Shown here one piece after another: positions 4,411-38,924 of a stretch of DNA of 64,000 nt. The number at the start of each line of letters is the position of its first letter. Within the stretch, counting starts at the first letter, position 1. The translations under genes and the position numbers were made by a program. The stretch spans positions 8,618,001 to 8,682,000 of the forward strand of contig NC_086097.1 of NCBI RefSeq assembly GCF_963921235.1, in the 5' to 3' direction. The notes beneath the pieces were generated by a model. That model saw only the letters and a list, made by a program, of their open reading frames with translations. It was not told the origin of the DNA and made no database searches. This DNA comes from Mobula hypostoma. Its lineage: Eukaryota.

Positions 4411-5555
4411 CCTTTGATGTAACACCAGAGATAAAACATTAACATAAAAAATGTGCTCATTGCAGATGCACACTGCTGGCCCCATGACAAACTTGAATTA
4501 CTGCTAAATATGGGGCCATCAGCAACATCATGGGTTAATTAACCACATAAAACAATCCAGGTTCTTCAGCTTTTTAAATAAGTTTCATTTTGAAAACACC
4601 TGCAGCTCCATTAATGAAAAGCTTTGTCACGTTGTCATGGTGTCAAAAGAATGAACTCTTTTGCCAGTGATGTGCAAACTCAAATTTTTGCATTGAGTAA
4701 GTGTTTTCCCAAGCATTGAATATAAAAGACAAGATATGGTTTACAATGACTGTTTGCACAATACATGGACTTATTAAAGGCAAGTCGCATTTGACAAATT
4801 CAATAATGTTTTTTTTCTCTGAAGTAGTGATCACTTCCTATAAATTCATCCCTGGGTCATTAGCACTGAAATACTCAGCTTCTGAAATTTAGTTCGACTG
4901 AAATTAAAAGCACAGAACATGATTCCATTATTACAGACCAAATGAAGAAGGATATCATGGCAAAGACACCTTTTTTTTATACAATTTATAACAAACCAGT
5001 TCAGATACTAAGAGAAGAGAAAACATATCCAGCTGCCAGACATATAGCAAAAGATTAAGTTTAATGAGTGTTGATTTTGATTGGTTAATCAGAGGCTGGC
5101 ATACTTCAGGCTCAGTGGTGCATCCAATTACTCTCCTGAAAATGCAATATTATGTATAATTGCTTGAGTTTGTTGAAAACAAAACTCATACTGTTCTACA
5201 CAAATTCAGATAAGCACTCGCCTTCTAAATGGTCATGAAAATTAACTCAACACTGGAGGAAATCAGCAAGTCAGGTTGCATCTTTGTAGTGAATAAACAG
5301 TCGATGACAAAGAGTGGGAAGAAAGGGACTTTTCTCGACTGGCATGTTGTAGCCAGTGGGATACTCCTACAGTATTGAAAATTTGCTGCTAGACTTGCTT
5401 CAGATTTCTATACATGTGGCTGCAAGATGGTCATCATTGAGAAGTGGTCAGGTAAAAATCCTGCTTCTGACATTGGACTCTTTGAGTAATTATCTGGATA
5501 AATGGTTCAATATTGAGCTCAGCTTTGAAGGGCAAAATTGAATCATTTTGCCATA

Positions 5556-5915
5556 CTTACTTACTTCCTGTTAGGCCTGCTGACATTAAGGGCGGCAATG
5601 AAGGTCCTCCATCTCTGTCTGTTCTTGGCCATCTCCCTATCGTGCCCGGGATGTGGTTCAACATCCACAATGTTTCACACAGATGTAGAAGGATTTTTCA
5701 TTGTTGTTTCTGTAACAGTTTGGTTTGACCTGTTATGGTTTTTAGCCCTGTGCTGAATCCCCAAACCTGGAGAACTGGTGCACCACTCTTTGTCTGGCCT
5801 CCACACTTTGATCTGTTTGGCATGTGTGACCCTACCAAGAGCCAAAGCATAAAGCCCTGACTCCAGCTAGCATTGCTCTCTGGATCACTGAGGCACACAA
5901 GCCTCCAAACCACCA
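5556..5915 (-). mobile_element. Bipartite non-autonomous RTE (Expander/Rex3-like 5' UTR fused to the RTE 3' end with a TAAG tail)
   Basis: Minus strand ends AKNRQRWRTFIAALN..* then aagtaagtaa; the 5' part has the ctcttggtagggtcac..ggccagacaaagagtgg motif. Second copy at 48810-49430. Confidence 0.7.
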
Positions 5916-6034
5916 TATAGTTATGTCCTCTTGTTAGATTTTGCCTTTCTGGAATAACAAATTTGCCTATTTCTCTATTGCTGTAATTTATAAATTTAAA
6001 CCTAGAATGTCCATAATGGATTTGTAATCTGTAG

Positions 6035-6845
6035 CAGAACATCAATAATTTCAGATATGCAGATGACACTGTGTTAATTGCAAGTACGGAGGAAGAACTA
6101 CAAAACGTAATTGATATAGTTGTTGAAGAAAGTGCAAAAATGGGTCTATATATCAATTGCAAAATGACAGAATGTATGGTGATATCCAGAAAGAAGGAGA
6201 ATCCTGTCTGCAGGCTGAGAATAAACAGGGAAGACATAAAACAAGTACAGAACTTTTGCTACTTAGGAAGCTGGGTGACATCAGGTGGCAGGTGCAACAT
6301 GGACATCAAAAGAAGAATAGGGATGGTAAAAGACACCTTTACGAGAATGAAGAGTATACTGACCAACACTAAACTAGGCATGACAACTCGCCTCAGAGTA
6401 CTGAAATGTTACGTTTATCCAATTATGTTATATGGCTCAGAATGTTGGACAATATCTAGTAAACTGAGGAAAGGAAATGAAGCAGCAGAGGTGTGGTTTT
6501 TGAGGAAGATGCAAAGAATATCATGGATGAAATGAATATCTAAAGAGAATATCATGAACAGAGCAAACACTAAAAGAGAAATAATATATGAGATCATGAA
6601 AGGACAATGTAACTTCATTGGACGTGTAATTAGGAAAGAGGCGTTAGAATGCACGGTACTTATGGGAAAGATTGAAGGGAAGAAAGCAAGAGGAAGACAA
6701 AGACAAATGATGATGGAGACAGCAGCCAGAGAACTGGAAATGAATACTGTACCAATGAATTGATCCACTTGACCTGAAACAGGAGTGTGTGGGCCATGGC
6801 AGCCAAAGCTCAAACTGGGCATGGCACCTGATGATGGTGATGATG
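6035..6845 (+). mobile_element. 5'-truncated RTE (BovB-like) LINE
   Basis: NINNFRYADDTVLIA, FCYLGSW, YPIMLYGSECWT, GKIEGKKARGRQR; (TGA)n tail; 9-bp TSD aatctgtag at 6026-6034 and 6846-6854. Confidence 0.92.
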
Positions 6846-7394
6846 AATCTGTAGTGAGAAACTGGTGAAAATTCTTCATTATAAAATAGATGCCGAGTGA
6901 TTCATTTTCTACCTGCATTCACTTTTACTTAAAGTGCAAGATCTAAATACTCCTGGCTTCTCCTGCCCATCTTCCAAGTTTAAAGTTCAGAGTAAATTCT
7001 ATTATCAAAGTATATATACCATGTACAACCTTGAGATTCATCTTCTTCCAGGCAGCTACGGAACAAAGAAATACAAGAGAATCCACAAAAGATCCCCACA
7101 CAAAGACCAACAAACATCCAATGTGCGAAAAAAGAACAGATTACGTAAACTATAAAAAAACAAACAATACACAGGATATGCACCACAAATCCCAGGTGAT
7201 TCATTTCCACTTTTTAGTTTCAGATATCACATGTGGTTTCACAAGTCCTTGTTGTAGCAGGAAGATACATCTATTACATCTATGCTTAATCATTTTTGTG
7301 CATAAATCTAATGCTGTCAACTCTTTGCCCGATTTCCATTTTGCATTCACCTCAAGGAGCAGGTTCAGTGGTTAAAATGCATGTATGTTATTAT

Positions 7395-7670
7395 TTATCT
7401 ATTTATTCAGATACAGTGTGGAATACGTCCTTTCTGGCCCTTTGAGCCGCACTGCCCACCAATTCCCAATCTAATCCCAGCTAATCATGGGAGATCTACA
7501 ATGACGTACCAACAGGTACACCTTTGGCTGTGGGAAGAAACCGGATCATCTAGAGGAAACACATGCAGTCATACAAACATAAGAACTCCTTATAGACAGT
7601 GGCAGGAATTGAACATGGGTCACCTATACAATACAATGCTGTGCAAACCATTATGCCACTGTAGCACCCC
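7395..7670 (-). mobile_element. HE1-type tRNA-derived SINE (degenerate)
   Basis: Reverse-complement homology to plus-strand copies at 16238-16482 and 61625-61925: tRNA-like head, central ccacagccaaag segment and CR1-like tail. Confidence 0.7.
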
Positions 7671-7767
7671 AAAACATTTGTCTAATACACGATTATAAAA
7701 GACGAGCTGTGCCACATTTTCCATTTTTTTTACCCTTAATACAAGCATCAGTTTTCAATCTCAGATT

Positions 7768-9230
7768 GAGAGTATGCACGGTAGAGAGCATCCTAACATA
7801 CTGCAACACTGCACGGTATGGAAGCTGCACTGTGGCGGACAGGAAGGCTCTACAACAGGTAGTCAAAACTGCCCAATGCATCACTGGCACCAGCCTACAT
7901 TTCATCAAGGGCATACATACAGAAAAGTTGCAGAAAAGGGCCAGTAACATCATGAAGGATCCCATACTACCTGCTCATGGATTGTTTGTCCCACTTCCAT
8001 CAGAGAGGAGGCTACGTAGCATCCACGCCAGGATCACCAGGCTCAAAAACAGTTCCTTTTCCCGAGCAGTAAGGCTGATGAACACATCCACCCACTGAAC
8101 CACCCCTCCACACCCCACACCACCATTACTTTGTCATTTCCTATCAGGGTCACCTTATCTACAGACACCCCTGTGCCTAGTGTCACTTTGCGTACATACT
8201 GTCAATCTATGTATATAAGCCATCTAATGTATTTATATTCATCGTCTTTATTATTGTGTTTTTTATATTACTGTGTTATTTTGTGCTGCATTAGATCAGG
8301 AGTAACAATTATTTCATTCTCCTTTACACTTGTGATGGGGTCCTGAATTACCCCTATGAACTGTGTTCGTTTACACCCATTAACTGTGCTTTTGAAAAGA
8401 GAGAGAGAGTTATTTAACACCAACAACTTGTTTTTAAAAGAGAGAGAGAGAGATGAAGACTGCTCACAGGTTGTTTATACTTTCTTCAAGGATATTTGCC
8501 TGCTTGTACATTCTTACACAGAGAGAGGAAGGAGGAGTTATTTGAGTGACAGTTGATGCTCAGCATGGGAAGATAAAATAGGAGGTCAGATGATAGACCT
8601 CTGACACATGTTTTGGGACACTGAATGAGCATTGTTGTGCCTGCAGGAAAAGTGGGTTTTGGAGGATCGATCAGGCGGATCAATCCGTCGCTCTTGCAGT
8701 GGAAAGAGGAAAGGGGTTGACCGGTGGGGAGTTGTCCATGTGTCCACCCTCGCCTGGGTGATAGCTCCACCACAGAAAACTGATCCCCTTCTATTGTGGT
8801 CAGTCGGTGACTTTTAAAGGATTTTGAAGGACAATGAGAAGATCGACGGCGTCAGCTTGCCTGAAGACTCAAATCTCTCCCTCTCTCTCTCTCCATCACT
8901 ACTTAACTCAATACCACGAACTGAACTGAACTGAACTGAACTTTACTCATTATCGTAAGACTGTATCTTTTTACCCCTAGACTTAAAGAAGCTTGGTTTT
9001 TCATACATATATTTCCACACTTACTGATATACTTACTTATATGTATATAATCATTGCTAATCTGTTTGAGTTATCTACATTTATATCACTGTATTGCATA
9101 GTTACTAATAAATATTATTAGTTTATAGCAATACTGGACTGCAAAGTGTTTTCCACCTCTGCTGCTTCTTTATTCCCGTCACGGGGTACATAACACACTT
9201 GAGTATTGGAAATGACATTAAACATCTTGA
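7768..9230 (+). mobile_element. Rex1/Babar-clade LINE 3' fragment, with its 3' UTR interrupted by a solo LTR
   Basis: CTVESILTYC..RKALQQVVKTAQCITG..IMKDPILPAHGLFVPLPS..RLKNSSF; the 3' UTR resumes after 9199. The UTR matches 19420-19725 and 39540-39660. Confidence 0.85.
8331..9195. mobile_element. Solo LTR (865 bp), probably Gypsy- or ERV-type
   Basis: Starts TGTGATGGGG, ends GTACATAACA; 4-bp TSD CACT at 8327-8330 and 9196-9199; AATAAA near 9107; removing it restores the LINE tail tttacacttg..tggaaatgacattaaac. Confidence 0.85.
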
Positions 9231-18100: not shown

Positions 18101-18644
18101 CAGTACAAGGTTTAATATTTTTTTCTACCATTAATATTAAATTACATTACGATAATTAAAGATAACTAGTGAAATACAATTTGATTTCTACATTAAAATC
18201 TCATTTGCTGCTATTTAGATACCACCAAGTTAATGGAGTCGCTTTCAAATCCAGAGGGGAAACATTGACTCAGGCTCAATAACTGGACTTAGAAACCTTC
18301 CTTGCTAACAATGGTGGAACAGTAGCTCTGCCCACAATACGAAGTAGAGAGCGATTACTCCATTCACAAAGCTTCGAGCAAGATTCTTATTCAGTGTACA
18401 ATAAAAGAAACCTTTGCCTTTGAAACATGTTAACAATGATTTAGACAGGAGAACTGCAAACAGCATTTCCAGGACATTTTCAATTGCAGTTCACCCAGTT
18501 TTTTGCCTAAAAAGTGCGGAGGTCTCCAGCTGAATATTTTGGATCAGGAAAGGTGGTAAGTTTAGTAACTGGAACACACACCTACAGGAAATATGCCATC
18601 ATGTTTCAGAACGGACAATGAATCCATATACACTACCATACTAT

Positions 18645-18966
18645 GCAAACATGAGGAATTCTGCAGATGCTGGAAATTCAGGCAACACACATCAAAGTTG
18701 CTGGTGAACACAGCAGGCCAGGCAGCATCTCTAGGAAGAGGTACAGTCGACGTTTCAGGCCGAGACCCTTCGTCAGGACTAACTGAAGGAAGAACTAGTA
18801 AGAGGTATGAAAGTGGGAGGGGGAGTGGGAGATCCAAAATGAATCTCCCTCCCACTTTCAAATCTCCTACTAGCTCTTCTTTTAGTTAGAAACGTCGACT
18901 GTACCTCTTCCTAGAGATGCTGCCTGGCCTGCTGCATTCACCAGCAACTTTGATTTGTGTTGCTTG
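18645..18966. mobile_element. Short inverted (tail-out) Penelope-like insertion
   Basis: 15-bp TSD acactaccatactat at 18630-18644 and 18967-18981; the right arm is the reverse complement of the left but lacks the hammerhead core. Confidence 0.9.
18744..18781 (-). ncRNA. Minimal type-I hammerhead ribozyme motif (Penelope pLTR)
   Basis: Minus strand UAGUC-CUGACGA-AGGgucucggCCU-GAAAC-GUC-GACUG. Confidence 0.8.
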
Positions 18967-19419
18967 ACACTACCATACTATTTTTGCTCTCTTTTTCTAT
19001 GACTTATTTAATTTAATTTTATATATTTATTGTATTTTATGGCTTTTTTTATTATCTATTGCATTGTACTGTTGGCACAAAACAACAAATTTTACAACAC
19101 ATGCCCGTAATCTAAAACCTGATTTTGATTTTGATTCTGAAGTCTATGCAACAGAACATGGTGGTTGCCCCTCAATGACAGGAAATCTACGTGGGATCTT
19201 CTTCATCAAAATGATACCCAAGTTCAAGTCCAATGTTATTGTCATTCTGTTGCATACACAGGCTATAAACATCAAGAAATGTATCGGGCACCACAGTGGA
19301 CTATGGATTGAGCTTTCGAAGATCAAAGCTCAAAGTAAAATTGCTGTGTAATTCTTGCCATATACTATGAGAGGAAAAATAAAAAAAAAGCCAGTTAACT
19401 ATTCCAAATGATCATAAAC

Positions 19420-28643: not shown

Positions 28644-30050
28644 ACACACATCAAAGTTGCTGGTGAACGCAGCAGGCCAGGTAGCATCTGTAGGAAGAGG
28701 TGCAGTCGACGTTTCAGGCCGAGACCCTTCGTCAGGACTAACTGAAGGAAGAGTGAGTAAGGGATTTGAAAGTGGGAGGGGGAGATCCAAAATGATAGGA
28801 GAAGACAGGAGGAGGAGGGATGGAACTAAGAGCTGGACAGGTGATTGGCAAAGGGGATACAAGAGGATTATGGGACAGGAGGTCCAGGAAGAAAGACAAG
28901 GAGGTGGGGTACCCAGAGGATGGGCAAGAGGTATATTCAGAGGGACAGAGGGAGAAAAAGGAGAGTGAGAGAAAGAATGTGTGCATAAAAATAAGTAACA
29001 GATGGGGTACGAGGGGGAGGTGGGGCCTTAGCGGAAGTTAGAGAAGTCGATGTTCATGCCATCAGGTTGGAGGCTACCCAGACAGAATATAAGGCGTTGT
29101 TCCTCCAACCTGAGTGTGGCTTCATCTTTGGGATGTGGAATTAAAATGTGTGGCCACTGGGAGATCCTGCTTTCTCTGGCAGACAGAGCGTAGATGTTCA
29201 GCAAAGCGGTCTCCCAGTCTGCGTCGGGTCTCGCCAATATATAAAAGGCCACATCGGGAGCACCGGACGCAGTATATCACCCCAGTCGACTCACAGGTGA
29301 AGTGTTGCCTCACCTGGAAGGACTGTTTGGGGCCCTGAATGGTGGTAAGGGAGGAAGTGTAAGGGCATGTGTAGCACTTGTTCCGCTTACACGGATAAGT
29401 GCCAGGAGGGAGATCAGTGGGGAGGGATGGGGGGGATGAATGGACAAGGGAGTTGCGTAGGGAGCGATTCCTGCAGAATGCAGGGGGGGGGGGAGGGAAA
29501 GATGTGCTTAGTGGTGGGATCCCGTTGGAGGTGGCGGAAGTTACGGAGAATAATATGTTGGACCCGGAGGCTGGTGGAGTGGTAGGTGAGGACCAGGGGA
29601 ACCCTATTCCTAGTGGGGTGGCGGGAGGATGGAGTGAGAGCAGATGTACGTGAAATGGGGGAGATGCGTTTAAGAGCAGAGTTGATAGTGGAGGAATGGA
29701 ATCCCCTTTCTTTAAAAAAGGAAGACATCTCCCTCGTCCTAGAATGAAAAGCCTCATCCTGAGAGCAGATGCAGTGGAGACGGAGGAATTGCAAGAAGGG
29801 GATGGCGTTTTTGCAAGAGACAGGGTGAGAAGAGGAATAGACCAGATAGCTGTGAGAGTCAGTAGGCTTATAGTAGACATCAGTGGATAAGCTGTCTCCA
29901 GAGACAGAGACAGAAAGATCTAGAAAGGGGAGGGAGGTGTCGGAAATGGACCAGGTAAACTTGAGGGCAGGGTGAAAGTTGGAGGCAAAGTTAATAAAGT
30001 CAACGAGTTCTGCATGCGTGCAGGAAGCAGCGCCAATGCAGTCGTTGATG
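28644..30050 (-). mobile_element. 5'-truncated Penelope-like element: RT C-terminus, GIY-YIG endonuclease and pLTR with hammerhead
   Basis: Minus strand INDCIGA..NFHPALKFT..LPFLDL..YYKPTDSHSYL; CKRNKCYTC..FTCESTGVIYCVRCSRCGLLYIGETRRRLGDRFAEH; LEEQRLIFCLGSLQPDGMNIDF; 10-bp TSD actttaagga at 28634-28643 and 30051-30060; frameshifted. Confidence 0.93.
28703..28740 (-). ncRNA. Minimal type-I hammerhead ribozyme motif (Penelope pLTR)
   Basis: Identical 38-mer to 18744-18781; same sense as the GIY-YIG ORF and ~290 nt downstream of its end. Confidence 0.82.
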
Positions 30051-36007: not shown

Positions 36008-36936
36008 CAGAATCAGAATCCTTTATTATTGCCAAGTATGTGGACACATACAGGGGGCTTGATACTGATTTCCCTGAGCTCTCGCTGTACAGAATCAAAA
36101 AGCAAACAAAACAATAGTGCAAATAATCGTGAACTATATACAATGAAGTATACCTGTGTATGTACAGGTGGACTTGGTTTATAATAGACTAAAATTCAAG
36201 TGTTCATAAGACTGATGGCATACGGAAAGAAACTGTTCTTGTACCTATTTGTCCTGGCATACAGTGATCTAAAGCGCCTACCAGAAGGAAGGAGTTGGAA
36301 CAGGTGATGTCCAGGGTGTGATGGGTCTACAATGATGCTGCTTGCTTGTTTCCTGACTCTAGATGCATATAAATGCTGGATCGAGGGCAGCTTCACACCA
36401 ATAATCCTTTCCGTAGCCCTGACGGTTCTTTGGAGTCTATTCTTGTCTTGTTTGGTAGCTGATCCAAACCAGACAGTGATGGACGAACAGAGAACAGACT
36501 GGATTATTCCTGAATAGAATTGAATCAGCAGCTCCTGAGGCAGGTTGTACTTCCTGAGTTGACGTAGGAAATACAACCTCTGCTGAGCCTTTTTGATAAG
36601 AGTATCCGCGCTGGGTGTCCACTTCAGATCCTAGGAGATTGTGACACCCAGAAACCTGAAGGTCTCCACAGCAGACACAACACTGTTGAGTATAGTGAGC
36701 GGGGGGAGCACTGGGGGCCTCCTCCTGAAATCCACTGTCATCTCCACAGTCTTGAGCGTATTTAGCTCCAGATTGTTCAGACCACACCAGAGGGCCAGCC
36801 ATTCCACCACCCATCTGTATGCAGACTCATCACCATCTCGGATAAGGCCAATGACAATTGTGTCGTCTGCAAACTTCAGGAGTTTAACAGATGTATCCTG
36901 TGAGGTGCAGTCATTAGTGTCAAGGGAGAAGAGCAG
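36008..36936 (-). mobile_element. 5'-truncated Rex1/Babar LINE inserted in the Tc1 transposase
   Basis: TNDCTS..LLKFADDTIVIGLI, FRFLGVTIS, YFLRQLRK..DPSHPGHHLFQLLPSGRR; (attctg)n tail; TSD tgtaat at 36002-36007 and 36937-36942. Confidence 0.92.
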
Positions 36937-37480
36937 TGTAATTAAGTAATGGCAGTTAACAGGAATGGTGGAGGTCAATTTGAGGTCTGGAAGACCAAGA
37001 AAACTTTCCGAGAGAACTGCTCATAGGATTGCTAGAAAGGCAAATCAAAACCCAATGGACTACCTCAAGAGGTGCAAACTGAAGGTTTTGCCATGGCCCT
37101 CACAGTCTCCCGACCTAAACATCATCTAAAATCTGTGGATAGACCTGAAAAGAGCAGTGCATGCAAGACTGCCAAAGAATTTCACAGAACTAGAAGCCTT
37201 TTGCAAAGAAGAATGGGTGAAAATCCCCCAAACAAGAATTGAAAGACTCTTAGCTGGCTACAGGAAGCGTTTACAAGCTGTGATACTTGCCAAAGGGGGT
37301 GTTACCAAGTACTGCCATGCAGGTTGCCCAAACTTTTGCTTTGGGCTCTTTTCCTTTTTTGTTATTTTGAAACTGTAAAAGATGGAAATTAGAAAGTAAT
37401 CTTGCTTAAAATATTGAAGAAACATACATCAAAGTTGCTGGTGAACGCAGCAGGCCAAGCAGCATCTATAGGAAGAGGCG

Positions 37481-37518
37481 CAGTCGACGTTTCAGGCCGA
37501 GACCCTTCGTCAGGACTA
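37481..37518 (-). ncRNA. Minimal type-I hammerhead ribozyme motif
   Basis: Identical 38-mer, left arm. Confidence 0.8.
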
Positions 37519-37825
37519 ACTGAAGGAAGAGTGAGTAAGGGATTTGAAAGCTGGAGGGAGAGGGGGAGATGCAAAATGATAGGAGAAGACAGGAGGGGGA
37601 GGGATGGAGCCGAGAGCTGGACAGGTGATAGGCAAAAGGGGATACGAGAGGATCATGGGACAGGAGGTCCGGGAAGAAAGACAAGGAGGAGGGGTGACCC
37701 AGAGGATGGGCAAGAGGTCCTGTCCAGCTCTTGGCTCTATCCCTCCCCCTCCTGTCTTCTCCTATCATTTTGCATCTCCCCCTCCCCCTCCAGCTTTCAA
37801 ATCCCTTACTCACTCTTCCTTCAGT

Positions 37826-37863
37826 TAGTCCTGACGAAGGGTCTCGGCCTGAAACGTCGACTG
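37826..37863 (+). ncRNA. Minimal type-I hammerhead ribozyme motif
   Basis: tagtc-ctgacga-agggtctcggcct-gaaac-gtc-gactg, right arm. Confidence 0.8.
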
Positions 37864-38924
37864 CGCCTCTTCCTATAGATGCTGCTTGGCCTGCTGCGTT
37901 CACCAGCAACTTTGATGTATGTTGCTAAAATATTGAAGAAATGTGTCATCTTTAACTTTATGCTTTTTGGAAATCTAGTCATCTTTTACTCGCTTAGCTA
38001 TTCACAGTAACAGAAATTTTGACCAGGTGTGCCCAAACTTTTGCACGCCACTGTATCTGTCTTATTGCAATTTATAGTGATTTTATTATGTATTGCAATG
38101 TACTGCTACAGTGAAACAACAAATTTCATGATTTATACCAGTAATATAAAACTTGATTCTGATTCTGATTCTGAGAATGAAATATGATCAGTGAATATCA
38201 GGTACTTGGTGACCAGCATGAACTCGGTGAGCTGAAGGGACGTTTCTGTGTTTTATATTTCTACAAAAACAAATGATAAAATCCTATAGCTGGTAGGACA
38301 CCTGATTGACTTTCCTCCTTGTGGTGAATCTTGCTGTGGTTTATCTCTTCAAACTAAAATACAAATTGGAATTGAATTGCAAAACCTCTCATGCAATGAT
38401 TCTCAAAGGTGACTATAAGCTGATACATTTCTCATCAAAACATTCTCTTCCCCAGGAGAGCAGAAAGTGGGAAGTTCATTCCAGCAGAGATATTTCAGGT
38501 AATGTATGTGAAACCCCAGCTGCTGATTGTGTCTGGGGCTGAGGTGGGGACTGAATTTGATAGTAGATGAGAACTGGCATTGGGCTTGCCATCAGTCCAT
38601 CTTCTCAGTGCATTGCAACCAGGCCAAATTCATGGTTTACCCTAACTGAAACAAAAGCATTGTTTACTGGTCAGCTGCTTCATGATGAAGCCAATGTTAT
38701 GAGAGGCAAAGTCTATCATAACGCTTCACAATGGTTGAAATTGCAACATTGAAGAGAACAGACTTCATTTCTTGAAGATCTTGATGGAGACAAAGGTAAT
38801 AGAGAGAGAGAGAGATATGTGCAGTACCAACTGGTGGGTTATGAACCCTATGACATAGATGGAAGAGATGCTGTCTCACAGTGGCAGAGACCTGGGTTCA
38901 GTGCTTTCCTTGGTCCTGTTTGAC

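What the first reader, a model, noticed from the sequence alone, without database searches (positions are those of the whole stretch)
37407..37941. Tail-out palindromic Penelope insertion: two hammerheads on opposite strands inside a 16-bp TSD
Seen: two ~205-bp inverted arms around a ~93-bp spacer, each ending in the element's 3' end and each with an intact hammerhead. The arms duplicate the same sequence and differ at three positions I could see. Inference: unlike L1 twin priming, which gives non-overlapping halves, both nicked strands appear to have primed at the same RNA 3' region. That points to two RNA templates or tandem pLTRs, consistent with a dimeric RNA. Read-through transcripts would form a long dsRNA hairpin, a candidate for ADAR editing or endo-siRNA production.
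Basis: partly seen in the sequence, partly recalled or inferred. Interest (0 to 1): 0.72.

Follow-up and report, generated by a model that had tools for sequence, protein, structure and literature searches.

The report
Ordinary head-to-head Penelope-like element insertion
This is a short, dead-on-arrival insertion of a very abundant Penelope-like jumping gene, made of two truncated tail-end copies joined head to head, a layout that is already a textbook hallmark of this class and occurs thousands of times in this genome.

Summary
Window 37423-37925 is a 503-bp insert flanked by a true 16-bp target-site duplication. It holds two inverted copies of one element's 3' UTR, each with a hammerhead core motif.

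Three points need correcting:
- The "93-bp spacer" is element sequence. The left copy is 296 nt and the right copy 207 nt, joined head to head at 37718/37719.
- Both arms stop about 34 nt short of the family's full 3' end, the "tail".
- The hammerhead is a motif match only. Rfam and folding do not support it.

The family is a canonical Penelope-like element (RT plus C-terminal GIY-YIG ORF in long copies). The terminal 26-mer has 65,959 exact copies.

Head-to-head pairs are common. Among 100 listed motif hits I counted 16, 13 and 12 close (-,+) neighbours against 0, 1 and 1 (+,-). The joint here is unique in the genome, so this is not a MITE-like unit.

The published record already describes inverted 5'-truncated copies, a one-sided tail, and priming from both nicked strands (PMC8557442, PMC3846280, PMC11167929).

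One side result: 28 of 29 pairs carry the tail on exactly one arm. The focal pair is the exception.

The parts
37407..37422 (.). Left copy of the 16-bp target-site duplication
   Evidence: Exact direct repeat. It is present once in uninterrupted paralogues of the host repeat.
37423..37718 (-). Left PLE copy, 296 nt, sense on the minus strand. It is the 5'-truncated 3' UTR and ends at the proximal (tail-less) 3' end.
   Evidence: Other genomic copies match 37413-37718 contiguously. It maps to reference L034[4901-7801] positions 2547-2852. 14 of 34 tail positions match, so there is no tail.
37486..37513 (-). Hammerhead core motif of the left copy (CUGACGA, short helix II, GAAAC, GUC)
   Evidence: Pattern match. 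The same 28-mer occurs 42,891 times in the genome. No Rfam hit. The fold is not recovered.
37719..37925 (+). Right PLE copy, 207 nt, sense on the plus strand, 5'-truncated, ending at the proximal (tail-less) 3' end
   Evidence: Maps to reference positions 2640-2847. No tail. It differs from the left copy at 3 of 203 positions.
37831..37858 (+). Hammerhead core motif of the right copy. The predicted cleavage site would lie after 37858.
   Evidence: Pattern match. The cleavage site is inferred from standard hammerhead numbering and was not tested.
37718..37719 (.). Head-to-head joint of the two copies, with no filler
   Evidence: BLAST coordinates abut. A 120-nt probe across the joint matches in full at 100% only at its own locus, among 40 scored of 313 candidates. 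The one 79% hit is a different pair with different break points.
37926..37941 (.). Right copy of the 16-bp target-site duplication
37130..38056 (+). Host repeat into which the PLE inserted. It is interrupted at 37423-37925. I recall it as the C-terminal and terminal part of a Tc1-like transposon.
   Evidence: At least 1,210 candidate copies in the genome, 40 scored at 94-96% identity. The right flank matches paralogues for about 131 nt. Pfam gave no hit for the 82-aa ORF at 37130-37378, so the Tc1 label is from recall only.

Best explanation
A Penelope-like element (PLE) made this insert in a single integration event.

Proposed steps:
1. The element's endonuclease nicked both strands of an AT-rich site 16 bp apart.
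2. Each freed 3' end primed reverse transcription on PLE RNA. Both started at, or within a few nucleotides of, the proximal of the family's two start sites.
3. On the left, the primer shares about 10 of 13 letters with the RNA around that site.
4. The two cDNAs stopped after 296 and 207 nt.
5. They were joined end to end, probably by a template jump of one cDNA onto the end of the other. That gave two inverted copies with their 3' ends outward and one 16-bp duplication around the whole.

The product is a non-coding, dead-on-arrival fragment with no function of its own.

Shown: the anatomy, the TSD, the family identity, the recurrence of such pairs, and the uniqueness of this joint. Inferred: the order of events, the template jump, and the use of RNA by both primers.
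For: Anatomy and TSD.

Family identity: copies are 5'-truncated at many points, from 60 to at least 1,700 nt in 40 copies. Long copies share up to 2,858 bp. [quoted passage not shown] The nearest Atlas clusters, at score 0.98, combine RVT_1 and GIY-YIG.

Orientation bias of close neighbours (within 3.5 kb) among the first 100 listed hits:
- 16 (-,+) against 0 (+,-)
- 13 against 1
- 12 against 1

Single events: 26 of 28 pairs are flanked by an 11-17 nt direct repeat, median 14.

Two start sites: 28 of 29 pairs have the 34-nt tail on exactly one arm.

Against copying one arm from the other: the tail-less arm reaches further 5' in 14 of 28 such pairs and the tail arm in 13.

Literature: a purified PLE protein cleaves and extends both strands, starting at two adjacent internal RNA sites whose spacing equals the tail (PMC11167929). 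An inverted 5'-truncated copy and a one-sided tail are described as typical (PMC8557442; PMC3846280).
Against: - No experiment or read data ties this locus to the mechanism.
- Pfam scores for RT and GIY-YIG are below the curated cut-offs, and the ORF start was not found.
- The focal pair breaks the family rule, since neither arm has the tail. It may have arisen by a variant route.
- Some pairs have symmetric or palindromic joints. L053 has both arms starting at the same reference position with a 15-nt overlap, and many contig joints lie at the 5' edge of the hammerhead. These fit self-priming as proposed in PMC3846280.
- PMC11167929 reports start sites not homologous to the target. Here 11 of 28 tail-less ends are followed by TT, like the start of the tail, which suggests microhomology.
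Confidence: 0.8

Rival explanations
1. Self-priming (snap-back). One cDNA folded back on itself and copied itself, giving the inverted arm, as suggested for PLE inverted repeats with palindromic joints.
For: PMC3846280 (passages) proposes self-priming to explain palindromes at inverted junctions. L053 has both arms starting at the same reference position with a 15-nt overlap. Contigs of two runs show many symmetric joints about 3 nt upstream of the hammerhead core (table 5).
Against: A fold-back copy cannot be longer than its template, and it cannot gain a tail that the template lacks. Yet 28 of 29 pairs have one tail arm and one tail-less arm, and the tail-less arm is the longer one in 14 of 28. 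The focal joint is not palindromic, with arms of 296 and 207 nt. A fold-back copy running to the end of its template would also copy the flank in inverted orientation. What is seen instead are direct TSDs.
Confidence: 0.08
2. Two separate insertions. A second PLE copy landed in inverted orientation exactly beside an older one.
For: The family is very dense: 65,959 terminal 26-mers and four hammerhead motifs in this window alone. The two arms differ at a shared polymorphic site, p113.
Against: One 16-bp TSD surrounds the whole structure and none surrounds either arm. The arms abut without host sequence. Chance neighbours would show no orientation bias, yet (-,+) outnumbers (+,-) by 16:0, 13:1 and 12:1.
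Confidence: 0.04
3. A fixed fold-back (MITE-like) unit that moves as a whole.
For: Hairpin shape with a TSD. The structure folds at -453.9 kcal/mol, z -37.
Against: The joint is unique. A 120-nt probe across it matches in full only at its own locus. The one weak full-length hit is another pair with other break points. Arm lengths differ in every one of 28 pairs, from 76 to 1,903 nt.
Confidence: 0.02
4. Double priming on two different RNA molecules held by a dimeric RNA or protein complex.
For: The PLE protein is predicted to be a dimer (PMC11167929). Minimal PLE hammerheads are thought to act as dimers (PMC4209133). In the focal pair both arms start at the same proximal site and differ at a shared polymorphic site, p113 C/T, 9 against 28 copies.
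Against: Family-wide, arms share subfamily alleles. The A/G site is concordant in 8 of 8 pairs and 11 of 12 pairs, where about 0.5-0.57 is expected by chance. Most arm differences are singletons. A symmetric two-RNA complex should give like ends, but 28 of 29 pairs have unlike ends. None of this separates two transcripts of one source locus from one molecule.
Confidence: 0.25

Closest known systems
Canonical endonuclease-positive Penelope-like elements (Penelope/Poseidon-type insertion units)
   Same: [quoted passage not shown] A hammerhead motif sits in the untranslated repeat region. Copies show strong 5' truncation. An adjacent inverted 5'-truncated copy gives a head-to-head inverted repeat. 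An optional 30-40 nt tail sits at one end (34 nt here). Short TSDs flank the whole insert (PMC8557442, PMC3846280, PMC11167929).
   Different: The focal insert contains no ORF and no tail on either arm. TSDs here are 11-17 bp, against 8-10 bp quoted for rotifer copies in PMC3846280. I saw no complete pLTR-ORF-pLTR unit in the four long copies I fetched.
L1 twin priming (recalled: Ostertag and Kazazian 2001; not read here)
   Same: The second nicked strand also primes reverse transcription, which gives an inversion inside one TSD.
   Different: In L1 the second primer anneals far upstream, so the two parts do not overlap and only one carries the 3' end. Here both arms start within a few nucleotides of each other near the RNA's entry site, and they duplicate the same 203 nt.
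Minimal dimeric hammerheads of metazoan PLEs (Cervera and de la Pena 2014, PMC4209133)
   Same: Core letters CUGANGA and GAAA are present, as is the cleavage triplet GUC. There is no closed helix III, and positions 15.1-16.1 are palindromic (ACGU). The motif is extremely abundant.
   Different: The helix II closing pair is A-U or G-U rather than the conserved G10.1-C11.1. Helix II is only about 3 bp. No covariation was examined and no cleavage was tested.
Animal non-LTR retrozymes (tandem hammerhead repeats; PMC7229834 listing only; bioRxiv 10.64898/2026.07.22.740005 abstract only)
   Same: Non-autonomous, hammerhead-bearing sequence derived from the repeat region of a PLE.
   Different: Retrozymes are direct tandem repeats giving circular RNAs. 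This is an inverted pair, so one transcript carries one sense motif and one antisense motif.

Membership tests
Penelope-like elements (EN+) | Single ORF with reverse transcriptase followed by a C-terminal GIY-YIG endonuclease | tested here: met
   L034 5118-7352 is a 744-aa open frame. RVT_1 covers residues 235-397 (E 9.7e-6, 25.9 bits, cut-off 29.6). GIY-YIG covers residues 647-686 (E 1.5e-3, 19.2 bits, cut-off 22.6). Both are below Pfam's cut-offs. The nearest Atlas clusters (0.98) carry RVT_1 and GIY-YIG. This is seen in long copies of the family, not in the focal insert.
Penelope-like elements (EN+) | Inverted 5'-truncated copy adjacent to the main copy, with the whole flanked by one TSD | tested here: met
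   Focal locus. Another 27 pairs tabulated with TSDs, and one more pair.
Penelope-like elements (EN+) | [quoted passage not shown] | tested here: met
   The family has a 34-nt tail. It sits on exactly one arm in 28 of 29 pairs. It is absent from both arms of the focal pair.
Penelope-like elements (EN+) | Pseudo-LTRs formed by partial tandem copies | tested here: inconclusive
   Partial tandem pieces are seen in L006, along with same-strand close neighbours (6). No pLTR-ORF-pLTR unit was seen in the four long copies fetched.
Penelope-like elements (EN+) | RT groups with PLE and telomerase RTs in a phylogeny | not tested
   No tree was built. The PDB sequence search gave nothing useful.
Hammerhead ribozyme (minimal type I of PLEs) | Conserved core C3 U4 G5 A6 N7 G8 A9, G12 A13 A14, A15.1-U16.1, H17 | tested here: met
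   Read directly at 37831-37858 (+) and 37486-37513 (-). Pattern match.
Hammerhead ribozyme (minimal type I of PLEs) | Conserved G10.1-C11.1 pair closing helix II (PMC4209133) | tested here: not met
   The letter before G12 is U. The closing pair would be A-U, or G-U with a bulged A (read).
Hammerhead ribozyme (minimal type I of PLEs) | Match to a curated hammerhead covariance model | tested here: not met
   No Rfam match at gathering score in the 64-kb window. No hammerhead family among the 40 matches at E up to 10 in 37300-38050. Minimal motifs without helix III are not expected to fit these models.
Hammerhead ribozyme (minimal type I of PLEs) | Self-cleavage | not testable with these tools
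   Monomer and dimer minimum-energy folds do not form the ribozyme.
L1-type twin priming | Two non-overlapping parts of one RNA, only one of them with the 3' end | tested here: not met
   The arms share 203 nt and both end at the 3' region.
MITE-like fold-back element | The same unit with the same internal joint at many loci | tested here: not met

The most novel reading that the evidence does not exclude
Pairs use one distal and one proximal start site almost without exception: 28 of 29 pairs, against about 48% expected if ends were chosen as in solo copies. This would mean that a PLE dimer copies a single RNA molecule from two fixed sites 34 nt apart, one for each nicked DNA strand. The tail would then be the footprint of that spacing, and the rare both-proximal pair at this locus would be a two-RNA accident. 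This would settle how PLEs make their inverted repeats.
Probability: 0.3. Interest if true: 0.5.

Novelty: already known. Interest (0 to 1): 0.2.

Why it matters
For this locus, very little. It is one of an estimated few thousand such dead copies. That figure is a rough extrapolation of 12 pairs per 100 of 42,891 hammerhead motifs.

The family as a whole is a large and young natural record of PLE integration products. Simple counts on it bear on an open question, namely how PLEs build inverted repeats. Three counts are relevant: which arm carries the tail, which arm is longer, and microhomology at the tail-less ends. These counts argue for RNA-templated priming from both strands and against self-priming.

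Tried and rejected
- Rfam found no hammerhead at either threshold. The miRNA-model hits are artefacts of the long hairpin.
- Single-strand and dimer folding do not recover the ribozyme fold.
- A striking pattern turned out to be ascertainment, not biology. At site p160, allele C appeared only in partner arms (7 of 7 pairs). The genome search skips very common words, so the right arm as query found nothing. The first search therefore retrieved copies through the rare T allele, which 2 of 100 unbiased hits carry.
- Sequencing runs were uninformative. All four runs are contigs and tens of thousands of repeat contigs were laid. The joint that skips 37418-37940 comes from paralogous host-repeat copies. 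So there is no evidence on an empty allele, on transcription of this locus, on editing or on small RNAs.
- The PDB sequence search gave nothing useful.
- Pfam gave no hit for the host repeat's 82-aa ORF.
- I wanted the AT content of the TSDs but did not compute it (see operators' field). TSD lengths are read.
- L006 was left out of the pair table because its right side is made of three pieces.
The census therefore rests on the first 100 listed places of each pattern search, all on one contig.

Full report
WHAT IS THERE

One search confirms the inverted arms at 37410-37625 and 37719-37934 (216 nt, 97% complementary), with 93 nt between them. It also confirms an exact 16-nt direct repeat at 37407-37422 and 37926-37941. 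Aligning one arm with the reverse complement of the other shows three mismatches in the 203 shared element positions.

The window lies in a 3.48-Gb, 200-contig genome.

The sequence around the insert is itself a repeat, with 1,210 candidate copies and 40 scored at 94-96%. In uninterrupted copies the left and right flanks of the window overlap by exactly the 16-mer (three are shown aligned). The 16 bp are therefore a true target-site duplication, and the insert is 37423-37925 (503 bp).

ANATOMY

Other copies of the inserted family match window 37413-37718 without a break. The "spacer" is therefore simply the extra length of the left copy.

Against a long copy used as a ruler (L034 4901-7801), the left copy covers positions 2547-2852 on the minus strand. 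The right copy covers 2640-2847 on the plus strand. The two abut at 37718/37719.

FAMILY

- The 40 copies in the first 30 loci are 5'-truncated at many different points, from 60 to at least 1,700 nt.
- Four longer stretches share up to 2,858 bp.
[quoted passage not shown] Both hits are below Pfam's cut-offs.
- By eye the frame also holds DKG and YIDD motifs.
- The nearest Atlas clusters (0.98) are animal proteins combining RVT_1 and GIY-YIG.
- RT plus C-terminal GIY-YIG is the definition of canonical EN+ Penelope-like elements (PMC8557442 abstract).
- The arms of the focal insert lie entirely in the roughly 500-nt stretch downstream of the ORF's stop.

HAMMERHEAD

Both arms carry the letters CUGACGA, a short helix II, GAAAC and GUC (4 matches in the window, 0.01 expected). 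The exact 28-mer occurs 42,891 times in the genome.

The motif fits the "minimal" PLE hammerhead, which has no closed helix III and a palindromic ACGU, and which is thought to act as a dimer (PMC4209133, passages). However:
- the helix II closing pair is not the conserved G-C;
- Rfam gives no hammerhead hit;
- neither monomer nor dimer folding recovers the ribozyme.

"Intact" therefore means core letters only.

THE 3' END

In 14 of 23 solo copies the sequence runs on for a further 34 nt (the "tail") beyond the point where both focal arms stop. The other 9 stop at the same proximal point, give or take a few nucleotides.

This matches the PLE tail. In vitro it corresponds to two adjacent internal start sites of reverse transcription (PMC11167929, main text).

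HOW COMMON ARE SUCH PAIRS

Pattern searches give unbiased lists. I counted close neighbours (within 3.5 kb) among the first 100 places of each list:

| Pattern | Exact hits in genome | (-,+) | (+,-) | Same strand |
|---|---|---|---|---|
| 27-mer 136 nt from the end | 9,844 | 16 | 0 | 1 |
| Terminal 26-mer | 65,959 | 13 | 1 | 6 |
| Hammerhead 28-mer | 42,891 | 12 | 1 | 2 |

I fetched 20 such places and added those already in hand.
- Of 28 tabulated pairs, 26 have an 11-17 nt flanking direct repeat, median 14. One has a 25-nt repeat and one has none found.
- Joints show 0-4 nt of overlap in most pairs. Others have 1-46 nt of filler, and one has a 15-nt overlap.
- Arm lengths differ in every pair.
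- A 120-nt probe across the focal joint matches in full only at its own locus. The one 79% hit is another pair with different break points.

This is not a fold-back unit that moves as a whole.

THE TAIL RULE

In 28 of 29 pairs exactly one arm has the tail (after correcting two one-base register shifts visible in its print). If the ends were chosen as in solo copies (14 of 23 with a tail), about 48% of pairs would be mixed. The focal pair is the single exception, with no tail on either arm.

The tail-less arm reaches further 5' in 14 pairs, the tail arm in 13, and they are equal in one. Copying one arm from the other cannot explain both the extra length and the extra tail. At least two independent RNA-templated starts are needed.

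Tail-less ends are followed by TT, like the start of the tail, in 11 of 28 pairs. At the focal left end the target shares about 10 of 13 letters with the RNA there. This suggests that annealing helps the proximal start.

ARE THE ARMS FROM DIFFERENT SOURCES

The three focal differences are (with p160's genome-wide frequency):
- p107: a CpG change. The right arm has the T that 3 of 37 copies carry.
- p113: the left arm has C (9 of 37 copies). This is a shared polymorphism.
- p160: the left arm has T. Genome-wide this is rare, in 2 of 100 unbiased hits.

Across pairs, most differences are singletons. Arms differ at 26 of 1,886 positions, against about 39 expected from non-partner copies. The common A/G site is concordant in 8 of 8 pairs and 11 of 12 pairs.

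Arms therefore usually come from the same source lineage. One molecule and two transcripts of one locus cannot be told apart.

An apparent rule that partner arms always carry C at p160 was an artefact. It arose because the genome search skips common words.

COMPARISON WITH WHAT IS KNOWN

- PMC3846280 (passages) describes the same, calls head-to-head the most frequent arrangement, and proposes self-priming.
- PMC11167929 (main text) shows cleavage and extension of both strands, two internal start sites, and a predicted dimer.

The finding is real but belongs to a described kind.

THE HAIRPIN IDEA

A transcript through the insert would fold into a roughly 200-bp stem (-453.9 kcal/mol, z -37). 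Contigs of four runs could not be assigned to this locus because of the repeat load. Transcription, editing and small RNAs remain untested.

Noticed in passing
window 18630-18981: A second, older head-to-head pair of the same family. The left arm is 18645-18842 (-, with tail, about 90% to the ruler copy). A 46-nt filler follows. The right arm is 18889-18967 (+, tail-less). A 15-nt direct repeat lies at 18630-18644 and 18967-18981.
   Followed up: partly
window 28645-28932 (-): A solo copy of the same family at 92% identity, with an exact hammerhead core at 28708-28735.
   Followed up: no
window 36196-37020 (-): Two open frames of another retroelement lie beside the host repeat. One has a weak RVT_1 hit (E 0.0014). 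The other has a clear ALKBH8_N hit (PF09004, E 4.4e-17).
   Followed up: no
ruler positions about 2739-2757 (window 37818-37836 on the right arm): Copies often end at their 5' side just upstream of the hammerhead core. This holds for 11 of 56 arms, and for many symmetric contig joints near 37516/37828 in two runs (table 5). It suggests a block to reverse transcription at the 5' edge of the motif.
   Followed up: partly
L006 276-1711; L057 337-2467: Complex products. In L006 the right side is three pieces (43 nt from far upstream, a 95-nt end with tail, then a 220-nt tail-less copy). In L057 the tail arm lacks ruler positions 1363-2699. Both look like template jumps.
   Followed up: no
L006, L016/L034, L025: first 10-11 nt after the tail: Several copies share the same letters beyond the usual tail end, and many tails end a few nucleotides apart. 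The RNA therefore seems to run on past the tail, and the distal start site is also fuzzy.
   Followed up: no
runs X5-X8 (organism B): Contigs of a second organism label hold 42-44% of the sampled words and the same repeat joints. The family seems to be shared with a related organism.
   Followed up: no
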